A DNA stretch of 32,000 nucleotides from Candidatus Arthromitus sp. SFB-rat-Yit (lineage in GTDB: Bacteria > Bacillota > Clostridia > Clostridiales > Clostridiaceae). Of this stretch, positions 11,351 through 15,988 are shown piece after piece. The notes under the pieces are model-generated. The model was not told the origin of the DNA and did no database searches. It saw only the letters and a list, made by a program, of their open reading frames with translations. Every line of letters starts with the position of its first letter. Within the stretch, counting starts at the first letter, position 1. The stretch is taken from the NCBI RefSeq assembly GCF_000283555.1, contig NC_016012.1, positions 1,483,557 to 1,515,556 of the forward strand, given 5' to 3'. Both the position numbers and the translations under genes were made by a program.

Positions 11351-11378
11351 AGGAGTATTCAAAATTGAATACTCCTTT
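11349..11378. terminator. Hairpin between convergent dnaB and the rlmH-like gene (probable bidirectional terminator)
   Basis: aaaggagtattcaa / ttgaatactccttt, a perfect 14-bp inverted repeat with a minimal loop. The U-tract is weak in both directions. Confidence 0.5.
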
Positions 11379-11403
11379 AATAATCTTAAATTCATATATT
11401 TAA

Positions 11404-11796
11404 TCATTTATGATATGGCTCATTATTAATTATTTTATATGCTCTATATATCTGCTCCAATAAAATCAAAACTAGTAAATCTTTACTCAAATTAAAACAT
11501 ACAAAACAGATATTATGATATAATTTATTAAATTTAACAAAAAAAATATTAATGTTTTTTACTCTATTTATAGATTTATATTTTATAATATCACTAAATT
11601 CAATAGAATTCATATATTCGCCATCTACTGTTGTTACATTAATATTATAATCATCACGACCAATCAATTTATTATCCAAAGAATAATAAACATTAATCTT
11701 AACAAACTTAGTAATCCTTTTATAATAGTCCATTATAGCTTGAATTAAATTTGAATTCTTTAAGTCTCTCTTGTCTAAAAATAAATTTATCTTCAC
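11404..11796 (-). CDS. RlmH-like SPOUT paralog B: canonical C-terminal tail retained, cofactor loop degenerate
   Basis: 130 aa with a GTG start overlapping the upstream stop (GTGA). N-terminus MKINLF...QAIMDYYKRITKFVKI and C-terminus LLEQIYRAYKIINNEPYHK match RlmH. The positions of the GGxxG loop (IFFVKFNKL) and of the TFPHQ motif (LSKDLLV) are not conserved. Confidence 0.7.
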   Translation of the reverse strand: MKINLFLDKRDLKNSNLIQAIMDYYKRITKFVKINVYYSLDNKLIGRDDYNINVTTVDGEYMNSIEFSDIIKYKSINRVKNINIFFVKFNKLYHNICFVCFNLSKDLLVLILLEQIYRAYKIINNEPYHK

Positions 11797-12182
11797 TTTA
11801 AAAACATCTTTTCTACAAACTGTAATGCAATCAACTTAAATATCTGATGTGGATATGTAAAATCACTTAATTTAATAACATAATTACATTTATTCCTTAC
11901 TTCATCACATACTCCTTCACTTCCACCAATTATAAAATAAACATGCTTGTTAATATTTTTAATCTTATTAATTTCATTCAAATTCTTTGTACCATTTAAA
12001 TCAAATAATACATACAAGCTATTTTTATTCTTATTTATCATATTTAATATACTATTACTTTCTAATCTTTTATTACTCTCCTTTATATTTATAAAATTGA
12101 TCTTACCCTTGTAATTATTCTCAATTTTCTTGAAATAATCTTTTAGTATACCTACAGAAATTAAACTTACTTCCCGCAACAT
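11793..12182 (-). CDS. rlmH: RlmH-like SPOUT methyltransferase paralog A: SAM-binding knot retained, C-terminal tail missing
   Basis: 129 aa. SLISVGILKDYF, VYFIIGGSEGVCDEV and KLSDFTYPHQIFKLIALQ align with 23S rRNA m3-pseudouridine1915 methyltransferase. It ends FVEKMFLK instead of ...IYRAF.I..GEPYHK. Confidence 0.75.
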   Translation of the reverse strand: MLREVSLISVGILKDYFKKIENNYKGKINFINIKESNKRLESNSILNMINKNKNSLYVLFDLNGTKNLNEINKIKNINKHVYFIIGGSEGVCDEVRNKCNYVIKLSDFTYPHQIFKLIALQFVEKMFLK

Positions 12183-12664
12183 TTCTTATACTTCTTACCA
12201 CTACCACATGTACATAATTCATTCCTTCCAATTTTTACACTATTTACTACAACCTTAGATGATCTCCATTTGGATGTTATTTCTCTAATCTTTTCTTCAG
12301 TTAAAATCTCACTCCACTCATTTAAATTAAATAAATAATCTGCCTTAGCATCTAACATATTAAAATACAACTCTTCTACATTAATATCAAAATCTATTTT
12401 ATCTTCTAATGTAATATTTTCTATATCTATATTTGTATTTAAACTCTCACTTATACCATCAACAAATCCTACTATAAATTCCTCACTTATATCGTATTTT
12501 TTAGATAATTCACTAATACTAGATGTAAATTTAAAATTCTTATTACCAAGTATATCCTTATAAATTTTTAATTCAACATTCTTATACTCATTCCAAAATA
12601 CTGCTTCCCCTTTTGTCTTAACAAATTCCGTAACCATATTAGTCCATTTATTATATAAATTCAT
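12167..12664 (-). CDS. SEC-C metal-binding motif protein
   Basis: C-terminal CTCGSGKKYKKCCGK is the SecA-type zinc-binding motif. AAGAGGTG 5 nt upstream of the ATG. The 3' end overlaps the rlmH-like start by 16 nt. Confidence 0.7.
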   Translation of the reverse strand: MNLYNKWTNMVTEFVKTKGEAVFWNEYKNVELKIYKDILGNKNFKFTSSISELSKKYDISEEFIVGFVDGISESLNTNIDIENITLEDKIDFDINVEELYFNMLDAKADYLFNLNEWSEILTEEKIREITSKWRSSKVVVNSVKIGRNELCTCGSGKKYKKCCGK

Positions 12665-12851: not shown

Positions 12852-13631
12852 TTAAAACCTCATATAATTACTAGGTAAACTTCTATGTGCAACTGTTAAC
12901 TTTAAATCTTTTCCAATTTTCATTCCATGATTTATAAGGATTCTTTCTGAAGTTTTATAGGCTAATTCTGGAAAATTACTTGTAATACTTAAATGACCTA
13001 AAATAATTCTTTTATAAGATATCCTTACAAGCTTAACTATTGTTAAAGCACATTCCTCATTTGATAAATGCCCATTATTACTAAGTATTCTTTCTTTTAA
13101 AAAATGTGGGTAATTACTTAATCTGAGCATTTCCTCATTATAATTACTCTCAAGTAATACAACATCTGAATCCCTTATATTATTAAAAATATCATTTGAA
13201 ATATGTCCAATATCAGTAACTACACTCAGCTTCTTTTTTTTATATAAAACACTATATCCAATTGGATCTACCGCATCATGTGGTAATTTAAAAGCTTTAA
13301 TATCTAAATCTCCAATCGAAAATTCCATTTTATCTATTATGTTTACATTATTAACACCTTTTAACTTATCTTGAATGCTCCTAAATGTTCGTTCATTTAA
13401 ATATATCGGAATATCTAATCCTTTACATATTACGCTAGCTCCCTTGTAATGATCTATGTGTTCATGAGTTATTAGTACACCACTTATCATATTTGGAGTT
13501 ATATTTATTGAATTGATGGCATTTATTAATGTTTTTTTAGATACTCCTACATCTATTAAAATATTTGTTCTATCACTACCAACTAAAAAACAATTACCAG
13601 AACTACCACTACTTATAGAACAAAATTTCAT
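12852..13631 (-). CDS. MBL-fold metallo-hydrolase (YycJ/WalJ-like)
   Basis: HEHIDH metal motif, later LPHDAVDP and GHLS motifs, 259 aa. The context upstream of rlmH matches Bacillus yycJ...rlmH. Confidence 0.85.
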   Translation of the reverse strand: MKFCSISSGSSGNCFLVGSDRTNILIDVGVSKKTLINAINSINITPNMISGVLITHEHIDHYKGASVICKGLDIPIYLNERTFRSIQDKLKGVNNVNIIDKMEFSIGDLDIKAFKLPHDAVDPIGYSVLYKKKKLSVVTDIGHISNDIFNNIRDSDVVLLESNYNEEMLRLSNYPHFLKERILSNNGHLSNEECALTIVKLVRISYKRIILGHLSITSNFPELAYKTSERILINHGMKIGKDLKLTVAHRSLPSNYMRF

Positions 13632-13647: not shown

Positions 13648-14934
13648 CTATATTATATTCTTAAACTCTTTTATATCATCTTTATATTCTCTATATATAT
13701 TAGCACCTAATTTTCTAAATTTTTCCTCTATATTGGGATACCCTCTATCTATATGCTTTATTGAAGTTATCTCTGTGGTCCCTTTAGCAACTAATCCTGC
13801 TATAATCATAGCAGCACCGGCTCTTAAATCTGTAGCTTTAAGTTTACATCCTGTAAGCTTATCTACTCCGTTTATAATAGCAGCTCTTCCTTCAATCTTA
13901 ACATTTACTCCCATTTTTTTTAGTTCATCAAAATACTTAAATCTATTTTCAAATATACTTTCACTTATAATACTTGTTCCTTCAGAAATACTCATAAGAA
14001 CACCTATTATTTGCTGTACATCAGTGGGAAATCCTGGATACGGTGCAGTTTTAATATTTACACCTTTTAAACGTTCCGTACTTTTTACTAAAATACTATC
14101 ATCATATTCAAAAATAGTTACACCCATTTCTATTAGTTTTGCTGTTATAGACTCTAAATGCTTTGGTATTACATTTTTAATTAATACCTCTCCCGTACAA
14201 GCTGCCGTTGCCATCATATATGTAGATGCTTCTATTTGATCTGGTATTATCGAGTAATTACACCCTAAAAGTCTTTTGACTCCAGTTATTTTTATAATAT
14301 CTGTTCCTGCACCTTTTATATTAGCACCCATCAAATTAAGAAAATTTGCTACGTCTACAACATGTGGTTCCTTTGCAACATTTTCAAGCACAGTAACTCC
14401 ATCAGCAAAGCATGCCGCTAACATTACATTTATAGTTGCCCCCACACTTACTACATCAAAAAATATATTGTTGCCAACTAATTTATCCGTTTCAGCAATT
14501 ACTGAACCATGTTCAATTCTAATATTAACACCAAGTTTTTCCAAACCTTTTATATGCTGATCTATAGGTCGATCACCTATACTACATCCTCCTGGAAGAT
14601 CCACAATTGTCTTTTTAAATCTTGCTAACAATGCTCCTATCAAATAATAAGAAGCTCTCATATTATGTACATCATCACTATCAGCTCGATAATTTTTCAA
14701 ATTTGAATTATCTATTATTAAGGTATTATTTACCTTTCTTACACTAGATCCTAATGTTTTTAAAATTCTCACTAGTTTATTAACATCCTCTATATCGGGT
14801 ATATTATCTATTATACATATACCCTCACTGCACATAACTGTAGCTGGTATAACAGCAACAGCTGCATTTTTCGCACCACTAATTTCTATACTTCCATAAA
14901 GTGGATTAGATCCATTTATTATAATCTTTTCCAT
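13648..14934 (-). CDS. murA: UDP-N-acetylglucosamine 1-carboxyvinyltransferase
   Basis: [32 protein letters not shown]-terminus, active-site loop [15 protein letters not shown] with Cys, 428 aa. GGGAG 5 nt upstream. Confidence 0.95.
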
Positions 14935-15487: not shown

Positions 15488-15988
15488 ATGAAATACATTA
15501 TTAAATGTGGTTTTACAGATAATTCTATAAAGGATTTAAAATATTTCAAAAATCAATTTCATCAAAAGTATAATTGTGTGAAAAATAAAAATTCATTATA
15601 TACACCCTTACTTAGTTTTAATTGTAATGATTGTATTAAATTTGATCCTCAATTAATAAAAAAAATTCAAAACTTACAAACTTTTAGAATTAATATATCT
15701 AATATCAAATTACAAAATAAAGTAGTTTATCTGTTAATAGAACCTCTGGGTTTTATATCATCAATACAACGATTATTCGAAGAATACTTTTTAATAAATA
15801 GTATCAAATATAATAAAATAAATAAATGGGATCATTTATACATAAAATATATAAATATTGATAAACTTAATGTAAATATAGCTGATTTATTTTTTCCGCC
15901 ATATATAAAAGTATCATCAATAAATATATTTAAATATAACAACAAAAAATCAACTCTACTAGACTCTATAAGTTTAAAAAATATATAA
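15488..15988 (+). CDS. Hypothetical 166-aa protein; layout reminiscent of a two-lobed 2H (LigT/YjcG-like) phosphoesterase fold with degenerate HxT/S motifs
   Basis: Long ORF in stop-rich AT DNA. An extended -10 (TGTTATAAT, 15427-15435) lies upstream. The positions expected for H-x-T/S-x read LYTP and HLYI. The only strong SD (AGAGGGGGA, 15451-15459) is 28 nt from the ATG, so the true start is uncertain. Confidence 0.5.
   Translation: MKYIIKCGFTDNSIKDLKYFKNQFHQKYNCVKNKNSLYTPLLSFNCNDCIKFDPQLIKKIQNLQTFRINISNIKLQNKVVYLLIEPLGFISSIQRLFEEYFLINSIKYNKINKWDHLYIKYINIDKLNVNIADLFFPPYIKVSSINIFKYNNKKSTLLDSISLKNI

What the first reader, a model, noticed from the sequence alone, without database searches (positions are those of the whole stretch)
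11404..12182. Tandem, translationally coupled RlmH paralogs that have each lost a different half of the composite active site
Firmicutes normally carry one rlmH of about 155-160 aa downstream of the yycJ-like MBL gene. Here there are two RlmH-like ORFs of 129 and 130 aa overlapping by GTGA (11793-11796). The upstream copy keeps the SPOUT knot and cofactor loop (VYFIIGGSEGV, SDFTYPHQIFKLIALQ). It terminates as FVEKMFLK and so lacks the conserved tail. The downstream copy keeps an RlmH-like N-terminus (MKI..., QAIMDYYKRI) and a near-canonical tail (LLEQIYRAYKIINNEPYHK). Its glycine loop is IFFVKFNKL and the FPHQ motif is SKDLLV. Structural and biochemical work on E. coli RlmH showed that the homodimer has a functionally asymmetric composite site. 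One protomer binds SAM and the other supplies essential residues from its C-terminal tail. These two ORFs look like a natural genetic separation of those two roles. That would be an obligate heterodimer produced by tandem duplication and reciprocal degeneration. I am not aware of such an arrangement having been described for this enzyme.
Basis: partly seen in the sequence, partly recalled or inferred. Interest (0 to 1): 0.72.

Follow-up and report, generated by a model that had tools for sequence, protein, structure and literature searches.

The report
Split RlmH methyltransferase: two complementary half-enzymes
In segmented filamentous gut bacteria the small ribosomal RNA methyltransferase RlmH is encoded as two adjacent, overlapping genes: one keeps only the cofactor pocket and the other only the catalytic tail, so they most likely work as an obligate heterodimer with a single active site.

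Summary
On the minus strand, A (11793-12182, 129 aa) and B (11404-11796, 130 aa, GTG start) overlap by GTGA. Both pass the Pfam SPOUT_MTase cutoff, and both are modelled as RlmH-like folds. The window comes from Candidatus Arthromitus sp. SFB-rat-Yit.

Aligned to E. coli RlmH, all eight "second-protomer" residues of Koh et al. 2017 are invariant in the B family. These are R25, R26, E138, R142, S145, Y152, H153 and R154. A keeps none of them unchanged (five sit in deletions; position 142 is K in 5 of 8). The cofactor-pocket residues (GGxxG, S123, H129, D73, E56) are invariant in A and lost in B.

The A-B tandem is intact in 10 diverged lineages (SFB clade plus Ca. Dwaynia). dN/dS is 0.17-0.52 for each gene. 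78 other bacterial rlmH loci hold a single full-length copy.

The most likely reading is an obligate A:B heterodimer with one composite site that makes m3Ψ1915. The interaction, the activity and the absence of a third, canonical copy could not be tested.

One caveat is unexpected. Short "tail-only" RlmH-like proteins without a SAM loop are widespread outside this clade: 108 of 144 new representatives in the best hits. The two looked up stand alone. So B may have a function that does not need A, and an origin by tandem duplication is not certain.

No description of such a split was found in the literature searched. I rate it a new variant of a known kind.

The parts
11793..12182 (-). Gene A: the SAM-pocket half of RlmH (129 aa). 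It keeps the knot and cofactor loops. It lacks the alpha1 K-R segment, E138, R142 and the whole C-terminal tail.
   Evidence: ORF. Pfam PF02590, 55.8 bits. Alignment to RlmH structures ends before the tail. Residue table. AF2 model pLDDT 78.5, with RlmH structures as top Foldseek hits at TMq 0.72-0.82. NCBI protein BAK81883.1 / WP_014095338.1, named RlmH.
11404..11796 (-). Gene B: the catalytic-tail half of RlmH (130 aa, GTG start). It keeps the alpha1 K-R, alpha3, and alpha5 E-x3-R plus the EPYHK tail. It lacks the GGxxG loop, helix alpha4, helix alpha2 and the FPHQ motif.
   Evidence: ORF. Pfam PF02590, 46.3 bits. Tail alignment. Residue table. AF2 model pLDDT 91.1, with RlmH structures as top hits at TMq 0.72-0.86, and no helix between beta4 and beta5. 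100% identical to P0006 / BAK81882.1 of Ca. Arthromitus sp. SFB-rat-Yit.
11793..11796 (-). GTGA stop/start overlap between A and B (translational coupling).
   Evidence: The overlap is GTGA or ATGA in the window and in L003, L006, L007, L011, L013 and L095. It is 1 nt in L014 and L015. It is 26 nt in L094, by the gene calls. There is no clear Shine-Dalgarno sequence upstream of B in any lineage.
11910..11936 (-). A residues 83-91, FIIGGSEGV: bight 2, the glycine loop that contacts the SAM ribose and homocysteine moieties.
   Evidence: F83, I84, G86, G87, S88, G90 and V91 are invariant in the 8 A sequences. They correspond to E. coli 102-108, IGGPEGL.
11844..11870 (-). A residues 105-113, LSDFTYPHQ: bight 3 of the SAM pocket.
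   Evidence: S106, T109, Y110, H112 and Q113 are invariant in the A family. S123 and H129 equivalents are kept in 8 of 8.
11407..11463 (-). B residues 112-130, LLEQIYRAYKIINNEPYHK: the end of alpha5 plus the catalytic tail (equivalents of E138, R142, Y152, H153 and R154).
   Evidence: E114, Q115, Y117, R118, Y120, I122, E126, P127, Y128, H129 and K130 are invariant across 19 sequences. They are 12 of 12 in the B family. The roles of these residues come from Koh 2017.
11716..11730 (-). B residues 23-27, DYYKR: the alpha1 basic pair equivalent to E. coli R25/R26, the RNA-binding residues of the tail-donating protomer.
   Evidence: K/R at position 25 and R at position 26 are kept in 12 of 12 B sequences. 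The segment is deleted in all 8 A sequences.
11473..11547 (-). B residues 84-108: the degenerate SAM pocket. IFFVKFNKL replaces FxIGGSxGL with an 8-residue deletion of alpha4, and FNLSKDLL replaces MTFPHQLM.
   Evidence: Alignments. G103, G104, G107, S123 and H129 equivalents are variable or gapped in B. The hydrophobic interface positions 122, 125 and 127 stay hydrophobic.
12167..12664 (-). Upstream SEC-C-motif gene (165 aa). Its last 16 nt overlap the start of A. It is the first link in the coupled chain secC-A-B, downstream of yycJ (12852-13631) and murA (13648-14934).
   Evidence: The same order and the same overlap occur in all related loci.

Best explanation
A and B are the two complementary halves of what is normally a homodimeric enzyme, RlmH (23S rRNA m3Ψ1915 methyltransferase).

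In canonical RlmH each active site is composite. One protomer supplies the SAM pocket, made of bights 1-3 of the SPOUT knot. The other protomer supplies helix alpha5 (E138, R142), the C-terminal tail (Y152, H153, R154) and the alpha1 basic pair (R25, R26). Only one of the two sites is thought to act on the single target in the 70S ribosome.

In the SFB clade, A has kept only the pocket role and B only the tail and RNA-docking role. The two genes are translated from one mRNA by stop-start coupling, which favours equal amounts and co-assembly. I infer that they form an obligate A:B heterodimer with exactly one functional composite site (A's SAM plus B's tail). The mirror site (B's pocket plus A's missing tail) would be dead.

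Shown here: the reciprocal retention of residues, conservation of the pair, purifying selection on both genes, and RlmH-like folds for both. Inferred: the physical heterodimer, SAM binding by A only, and m3Ψ1915 as the product.
For: 1. Residue-level reciprocity, read against the E. coli structure and mutagenesis. All 8 tail-side residues are invariant in 12 of 12 B sequences; A keeps none of them unchanged (five sit in deletions, position 142 is K in 5 of 8). G103, G104, G107, S123, H129, D73 and E56 are invariant in 8 of 8 A sequences, and none is kept in B. In E. coli, the E138A/Q, Y152F, H153F and R154A mutants are inactive, so an A homodimer should be dead.

2. A and B are adjacent and overlapping in 10 of 10 diverged lineages with enough flank. 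A identity falls to about 40% across these.

3. All 32 tail-less A-type clusters found belong to this clade. Bit scores drop sharply from 143 or more within the family to 110 or less for canonical RlmH.

4. dN/dS is 0.17-0.52 for A and 0.24-0.38 for B, with dS up to saturation and no frameshifts or stop codons.

5. B has its own invariant motifs at the dimer-interface bights (YNIN, ICF). The interface positions 72, 122, 125 and 127 stay hydrophobic.

6. Both AF2 models match RlmH structures best. The secondary-structure losses are also reciprocal: B lacks the solvent-side helices alpha2 and alpha4, and A has shortened interface helices alpha1 and alpha3.

7. Evolutionary rates of A and B are correlated beyond their neighbours: partial r = 0.45, Mantel p of about 0.009 with 9 taxa. 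This is weak support.

8. The pair sits in the rlmH position downstream of yycJ in the origin-proximal region. 78 other rlmH loci hold a single full-length copy.
Against: No direct evidence of an A:B interaction was obtained. Multimer modelling was not possible.

A third, canonical rlmH elsewhere in the genome could not be excluded. The presence of rluD, which makes the Ψ1915 substrate, was not checked.

Tail-only RlmH-like proteins resembling B are common in other lineages (108 of 144 new representatives). The two looked up have no RlmH-like neighbour. So a B-type protein may do something on its own.

In A, the R142 position is K in 5 of 8 sequences, so partial function cannot be ruled out from sequence alone.

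dN/dS of both genes is higher than that of their neighbours, which indicates relaxed constraint.
Confidence: 0.6

Rival explanations
1. B belongs to, or behaves like, the widespread family of solitary tail-only RlmH-like proteins. That family would have a SAM-independent job of its own, for example binding helix 69 or the 70S ribosome as a non-catalytic factor. A would then be a separate protein, and the adjacency would reflect shared ancestry and operon membership rather than an obligate complex.
For: Of the 144 new representatives among the 150 best hits to a tail-only profile, 108 lack the GG and HQ motifs but keep EQIYR and the PYHK tail. P0030 (L009) and P0047 (L010) have no RlmH-like neighbour. 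In an NJ tree without A, the SFB B sequences group with these proteins in 94 of 100 bootstraps.
Against: A lacks every residue shown to be essential in trans. Yet its SAM motifs are invariant and it is under purifying selection. This is hard to explain without a tail donor. A-type proteins were found only next to a B. The NJ grouping may be long-branch attraction: the mean distance from B to canonical RlmH (1.61) is smaller than from B to the solitary proteins (1.77). A and B rates are correlated.
Confidence: 0.2
2. A canonical rlmH exists elsewhere in the SFB genome and makes m3Ψ1915. The A/B pair would then be a redundant duplicate that has taken on a new role, such as another target or a regulatory function.
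For: This was not excluded, because only 32 kb of a 1.5-Mb genome was available. Both proteins score far below the RlmH equivalog cutoffs.
Against: The pair occupies the expected rlmH position after yycJ. The genome is reduced, at 1,515,556 bp. NCBI names both of these proteins RlmH. 78 of 78 other loci have one copy within about 3 kb. The catalytic residues specific to RlmH are strictly conserved between the two genes.
Confidence: 0.1
3. The two ORFs are decaying remnants (pseudogenes) of a duplicated rlmH in a reduced genome, and they have no function.
For: Each has lost motifs regarded as essential. Their dN/dS is higher than that of neighbouring genes.
Against: Both reading frames are intact in 10 lineages with dS above 1. 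dN/dS is 0.17-0.52. The functional residues that remain are invariant. The stop/start overlap is conserved. The only truncated copy (L001) differs by a single T in a T8 run and is otherwise identical, so it is most likely a sequencing error.
Confidence: 0.03

Closest known systems
Canonical RlmH (YbeA / OrfX / YydA; COG1576, PF02590), a homodimeric 23S rRNA m3Ψ1915 methyltransferase (PDB 1NS5, 5TWJ, 4FAK, 1TO0)
   Same: Same minimal SPOUT fold. Same genomic position after yycJ. Taken together, A and B carry the full set of SAM-pocket and catalytic-tail residues.
   Different: The canonical enzyme is one gene of 140-163 aa that forms a symmetric homodimer, and each protomer has both halves. Here there are two genes of about 130 aa, each with one half only. 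A versus B by BLASTP gives E = 0.14, and they share about 14% identity in profile alignment.
Trm6-Trm61 (tRNA m1A58) and METTL3-METTL14: heteromers of a catalytic methyltransferase with a degenerate paralogue. These are Rossmann-fold enzymes. This entry rests on my own knowledge and on the mention in Tkaczuk 2007.
   Same: Paralogous subunits. One has lost SAM binding and serves in RNA binding or in completing the active site. They derive from a homo-oligomeric ancestor (bacterial TrmI).
   Different: A different fold, and they are eukaryotic. In those pairs only one subunit is degenerate. Here both subunits have lost a different, complementary part of a composite site.
Yeast Upa1-Upa2 (Ygr283c/Ymr310c, COG2106), a heterodimer of SPOUT paralogues
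   Same: The only SPOUT paralogue heterodimer found in the literature searched. It arose by duplication of a gene whose orthologue, human SPOUT1, is a homodimer.
   Different: Upa1-Upa2 is described as catalytically inactive, with neither subunit binding SAM, and it acts as a scaffold in pre-60S assembly. It is eukaryotic, the paralogues are 70% identical, and it has a perpendicular dimer with OB inserts. The SFB pair looks built to retain one working site.
Solitary tail-only RlmH-like proteins (about 125-140 aa) in uncultured Firmicutes, e.g. P0030 (Erysipelotrichaceae MAG) and P0269 (MBE6020160.1). Databases annotate them as RlmH.
   Same: Same architecture as B: alpha2 and alpha4 missing, no GGxxG or FPHQ, and EY.KR, SSE.LA and EQIYR...EPYHK kept.
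   Different: No adjacent A-type partner in the two loci examined. The relationship to SFB B is unresolved, either common descent or convergence. Their function is unknown.

Membership tests
RlmH (COG1576 / PF02590 / TIGR00246) | Minimal SPOUT alpha/beta-knot fold with no extra domains | tested here: met
   Pfam PF02590 above the gathering score for both proteins. AF2 models give pLDDT 78.5 for A and 91.1 for B. The top Foldseek PDB hits are 1TO0, 4FAK, 1VH0, 1O6D and 5TWJ, at TMq 0.72-0.86. Knot topology itself was not checked.
RlmH (COG1576 / PF02590 / TIGR00246) | SAM pocket: bight 2 GGxxG and bight 3 LSxxT[FY]PH[QP] within the same polypeptide | tested here: inconclusive
   Met in A (GGSEG, LSDFTYPHQ; invariant in the family). 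Not met in B (an 8-residue deletion, with variable residues at all these positions).
RlmH (COG1576 / PF02590 / TIGR00246) | Catalytic E138-R142-Y152 triad plus H153 and R/K154 on alpha5 and the C-terminal tail | tested here: inconclusive
   Met in B (12 of 12 invariant). Not met in A (no tail; E138 replaced by Q/K/M/L, R142 by K/E/Y). Neither protein alone has all the defining residues. The pair together does.
RlmH (COG1576 / PF02590 / TIGR00246) | Score at or above the NCBIfam equivalog cutoff | tested here: not met
   Best scores are 46.7 bits (A) and 47.2 bits (B), against cutoffs of 141-242.
RlmH (COG1576 / PF02590 / TIGR00246) | Antiparallel dimer, and SAM-dependent methylation of Ψ1915 on 70S ribosomes | not testable with these tools
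   Needs biochemistry or multimer modelling.
Enzyme/pseudoenzyme paralogue heteromers (Trm6-Trm61 type) | Two paralogous subunits encoded separately, one of which has lost the cofactor-binding motifs | tested here: met
   A and B are both PF02590. hhalign between the two families gives 92.6% probability. B lacks all the SAM motifs.
Enzyme/pseudoenzyme paralogue heteromers (Trm6-Trm61 type) | A physical heteromer that is required for activity | not testable with these tools
   Indirect support only: strict co-occurrence (10 of 10 loci), a stop/start overlap and correlated rates.
Tail-only RlmH-like family (solitary short proteins) | About 125-140 aa, no GGxxG or FPHQ, alpha2 and alpha4 deleted, EQIYR...PYHK tail kept | tested here: met
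   B meets all of these.
Tail-only RlmH-like family (solitary short proteins) | Common descent with the solitary proteins | tested here: inconclusive
   NJ without A groups B with them (94 of 100 bootstraps). But B is closer to canonical RlmH in mean distance (1.61 against 1.77), so long-branch attraction is likely. With A included, the tree is saturated and uninformative.

The most novel reading that the evidence does not exclude
The SFB pair may be the fully partitioned end point of a wider and undescribed phenomenon. RlmH uses only one of its two composite sites, so protomers are free to specialise. Under this reading, the hundreds of tail-only RlmH-like pseudoenzymes in uncultured Firmicutes would be dedicated tail-donor and ribosome-docking subunits that pair with a SAM-binding RlmH protomer encoded elsewhere. 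Alternatively they could be a new class of SAM-independent helix-69/70S-binding factors. In the SFB clade the partner has additionally lost its own tail, which would make the heterodimer obligate.
Probability: 0.25. Interest if true: 0.8.

Novelty: new variant of a known kind. Interest (0 to 1): 0.66.

Why it matters
1. It is a natural genetic dissection of the asymmetric composite active site proposed for RlmH from E. coli crystal structures and point mutants. If A+B is active while A and B alone are not, that proves one pocket plus one tail in trans is sufficient. It also shows which residues belong to which protomer role.

2. It is a clean bacterial example of a homodimer turning into an obligate heterodimer through complementary loss in each copy. 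This kind of complexity ratchet is usually discussed for eukaryotic RNA-modifying enzymes, and here it occurs in a reduced genome.

3. It exposes an annotation problem. Both halves, and many solitary tail-only proteins, are named "RlmH" in databases although none of them has a complete active site.

4. SFB are important immunomodulatory gut symbionts that are hard to culture. Their ribosome modification status is unknown.

Tried and rejected
- **Heterodimer modelling.** Only monomers were modelled.

- **A canonical copy elsewhere.** The one genome-contig scan did not return the SFB genomes themselves, and it fetches only flanks. Supplementary tables of SFB genome papers held no rlmH, SPOUT or COG1576 entries in the stored parts. 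I first thought the "longest_contig" column argued against another SFB RlmH. I dropped this argument because that column describes only the cluster representative.

- **Phylogeny of A, B, solitary and canonical proteins.** With A included, distances saturate and even B is not monophyletic. Without A, the result is compatible with long-branch attraction. The origin of B is left open.

- **Metagenome scan for the context of solitary tail-only proteins.** 76 of 80 loci held a single canonical RlmH. The one locus with a tail-only gene next to a canonical rlmH (L099) shows a GC jump from about 42% to about 60% at the junction. It is probably a chimeric contig or a foreign insertion, so it was not used as evidence.

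- **Truncated B in L001.** This is a single T missing in a T8 run in an otherwise identical sequence. I treated it as a sequencing error, not as pseudogenisation.

- **Promoter and terminator scan.** Nothing beyond chance in this AT-rich DNA.

- **Rfam and tRNA scans.** Nothing in the window.

- **A frameshift fusion of A and B.** I considered this. The sequence around the overlap is not a conserved slippery site across lineages, and B has its own complete RlmH N-terminus, so ordinary stop-start coupling is the simpler reading.
Full report
**Observation**

The window is AT-rich, about 24% GC. The minus strand carries ORF A (11793-12182, 129 aa, ATG) and ORF B (11404-11796, 130 aa, GTG). They overlap by GTGA.

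Both ORFs match Pfam PF02590 SPOUT_MTase above the gathering score, at 55.8 and 46.3 bits. Both score only about 47 bits against NCBIfam RlmH equivalog models, whose cutoffs are 141-242.

Against solved RlmH structures, A aligns over the glycine loop and FPHQ region and ends 8-10 residues short of the chain end. B aligns over the N-terminal helix and the C-terminal EQIYRA..EPYHK tail.

**Source and context**

B is 100% identical to a protein of Candidatus Arthromitus sp. SFB-rat-Yit, on a contig of 1,515,556 bp. This organism is a segmented filamentous bacterium in the Clostridiaceae. NCBI names both A (BAK81883.1) and B (BAK81882.1) "RlmH".

The window is the origin-proximal region. It holds yidC, mnmE, mnmG, rsmG, parAB, ssb, dnaB and rplI. 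The local gene order is murA, yycJ-like MBL, yyzF, a SEC-C-motif gene, A, B, and then a convergent dnaB. The start of A lies 16 nt inside the end of the SEC-C gene. The start of B lies inside the stop codon of A. Neither start has a clear Shine-Dalgarno sequence. This fits a chain of translationally coupled genes.

**Is the pair conserved?**

Yes. Public assemblies hold the same A-then-B tandem in nine further lineages beyond the window's own. Relative to the window protein, these run from 86% to about 40% identity for A and down to about 50% for B. They are L003/L004, L006, L007/L008, L011/L012, L013, L014 (Clostridiales MAG), L015 (Ca. Dwaynia gallinarum), L094 and L095. All have intact frames and a 4-nt, 1-nt or (in L094) 26-nt overlap.

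One assembly (L001) has a shortened B. It differs only by a missing T in a T8 run, and an independent assembly (L002) agrees with the window.

A profile search with the A family found 32 tail-less clusters of 129-141 aa. These score 143 bits or more, and canonical RlmH scores 110 bits or less.

In 78 rlmH loci from other bacteria there is one full-length copy per locus.

**Selection**

Nei-Gojobori dN/dS is 0.17-0.52 for A and 0.24-0.38 for B. Neighbouring genes give 0.005-0.26, and dS ranges from 0.15 to above 1. Both genes are therefore maintained, under somewhat relaxed constraint.

**Reciprocity at residue level**

Koh et al. 2017 (PMC5430550) showed the following for E. coli RlmH.

- One protomer provides the SAM pocket. 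This comprises bight 1 (L72, D73, I74), bight 2 (103-GGPEG-107) and bight 3 (L122 to H129).
- The other protomer provides E138 and R142 on alpha5, the tail residues Y152, H153 and R154, and R25/R26 for RNA binding.
- E138A/Q, Y152F, H153F and R154A are inactive, although they still form dimers and bind SAM.

I confirmed my E. coli sequence against 1NS5. I then aligned it with canonical Firmicutes RlmH, 8 A-type sequences and 12 B-type sequences.

All eight tail-side positions (R25, R26, E138, R142, S145, Y152, H153, R154) are invariant in B, and they carry the canonical Firmicutes residue. None is kept unchanged in A. Five of them are deleted, E138 is Q/K/M/L, and R142 is K/E/Y (K in 5 of 8).

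Conversely, G103, G104, G107, S123, H129, D73 and E56 are invariant in A, and none is kept in B.

Larger family alignments (31 A, 18 B, 40 canonical) give the same picture segment by segment. The tail is absent in A and 97% conserved in B. Bights 2 and 3 are conserved in A. In B they are degenerate in sequence, and helix alpha4 between them is deleted. B also has motifs of its own (YNIN, NR.KN.N, ICF). It keeps hydrophobic residues at the interface positions 72, 122, 125 and 127.

A and B are now so different from each other that BLASTP gives E = 0.14. Only profile comparison links them, at 92.6% probability and 14% identity.

**Structure**

The AlphaFold2 monomer models give pLDDT 78.5 and pTM 0.78 for A, and pLDDT 91.1 and pTM 0.86 for B. 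Both find RlmH crystal structures as best PDB matches, with TM 0.72-0.86.

B has no helix between beta4 and beta5 (alpha4 lost) and no alpha2. A keeps both of these but has short alpha1 and alpha3 helices. Koh et al. place alpha2 and alpha4 on the solvent side, and alpha1, alpha3 and alpha5 on the dimer side. So B has kept the interface layer in full.

**Most likely mechanism**

A and B form an obligate heterodimer in which A's SAM pocket faces B's alpha5 and tail. This gives one working composite site for m3Ψ1915. The other site is dead.

This fits the published view that only one cofactor site of the RlmH dimer takes part in catalysis. The stop-start overlap would deliver the two chains together.

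Weak extra support comes from correlated evolutionary rates of A and B after regressing out three neighbouring genes. The partial r is 0.45 and the Mantel p is about 0.009, with 9 taxa.

The heterodimer, SAM binding by A only, and the product are inferences. My confidence is about 0.6.

**An unexpected complication**

Five proteins among the first hits have the B architecture but come from outside the clade (P0028, P0029, P0030, P0047, P0054). The two whose loci were read have no RlmH-like neighbour: P0030 from an Erysipelotrichaceae MAG, and P0047.

An exhaustive HMMER search of 1.84 billion representatives with a tail-only profile gave 963 hits at E of 1e-10 or better. Among the 144 new sequences in the best 150, 108 are short (123-141 aa) and lack the GGxxG and FPHQ motifs. 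They keep EY.KRLS.Y, SSE.LA and the EQIYR...PYHK tail. Those that carry names are called RlmH in uncultured Firmicutes or Clostridiales MAGs.

Tail-only RlmH-like proteins are therefore a large and apparently undescribed group. Whether their genomes also encode a canonical RlmH could not be tested. The single locus that shows a tail-only gene beside a canonical rlmH (L099) has a GC jump at the junction and may be chimeric.

NJ trees do not settle whether SFB B belongs to this group or converged on it. This keeps alive a rival reading in which B has a function that does not need A. It also means that "tandem duplication then reciprocal loss" is only one possible history. In the other history, an older tail-only paralogue allowed the canonical copy to lose its tail.

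**Comparison with what is known**

The full-text library holds no paper that describes a heterodimeric or split RlmH. The 2022 SPOUT review does not contain the word "heterodimer".

The nearest SPOUT precedent is yeast Upa1-Upa2. This is a paralogue heterodimer that was anticipated in 2007 and is now shown to be catalytically inactive and to act as a scaffold. Functionally, the closest analogues are Trm6-Trm61 and METTL3-METTL14. In those pairs only one subunit is degenerate.

As single proteins, neither A nor B meets the full RlmH definition. The pair does. I rate this a new variant of a known kind.

**Limits**

Only 32 kb of the genome was available. No multimer modelling or biochemistry was possible. 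The literature library covers open-access papers only.

Noticed in passing
Outside the window: proteins P0028-P0030, P0047, P0054, P0243-P0384; loci L009, L010, L096: There is a large, diverse family of short (123-141 aa) RlmH-like proteins that lack the SAM loops (no GGxxG, no FPHQ, alpha2 and alpha4 deleted) but keep the catalytic tail perfectly. They make up 108 of the 144 new 50%-identity representatives among the best 150 hits. Where named, they are annotated as RlmH. The two loci read in detail (L009, L010) have no RlmH-like neighbour, and L096 also holds only one RlmH-like ORF. Their function and partner are unknown.
   Followed up: partly
L099:10001-11004: A tail-only RlmH-like gene (133 aa, + strand) lies 117 nt from a convergent canonical rlmH (161 aa). 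GC content jumps from about 42% to about 60% exactly at this junction. This is either a chimeric metagenome contig or a foreign insertion, so it cannot serve as evidence that the two types co-occur in one genome.
   Followed up: partly
window 11539-11546 (A8 on + strand, T8 in gene B); L001:2361-2530: One public assembly of the same strain (DRR001117) has 7 instead of 8 bases in this homopolymer, which truncates B to 102 aa. It is otherwise identical, so this is probably a sequencing error. A homopolymer inside the degenerate loop region could also, in principle, vary in length.
   Followed up: partly
window 12167-12664 (-): A 165-aa protein with only a C-terminal SEC-C motif (CxCGSGKKYKKCCGK) lies between yyzF and A. 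Its last 16 nt overlap the start of A in every lineage, and its dN/dS is low (0.09-0.20). Its function is unknown, but it is tightly coupled to the RlmH pair.
   Followed up: no
window 11351-11380: A perfect 12-bp inverted repeat (AAAGGAGTATTC, loop AAAATT, GAATACTCCTTT) sits between the convergent stops of dnaB and B. It is probably a bidirectional terminator. The consensus scan did not flag it because no T-run follows.
   Followed up: no
window 15488-15988 (+): A 166-aa ORF with no Pfam match lies between murA/DUF1540 and a subtilase gene. An ORF of similar size with no Pfam match is present at the same place in related loci (L002, L006, L095).
   Followed up: no
P0154-P0159 and many of P0160-P0240: The canonical RlmH proteins closest to the A family are unusually short (140-152 aa). 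They already lack part of the alpha2 insertion seen in the 159-aa Firmicutes enzymes, and some have H-G/N/R instead of H-Q after the FP motif. So the size reduction may have preceded the split.
   Followed up: no
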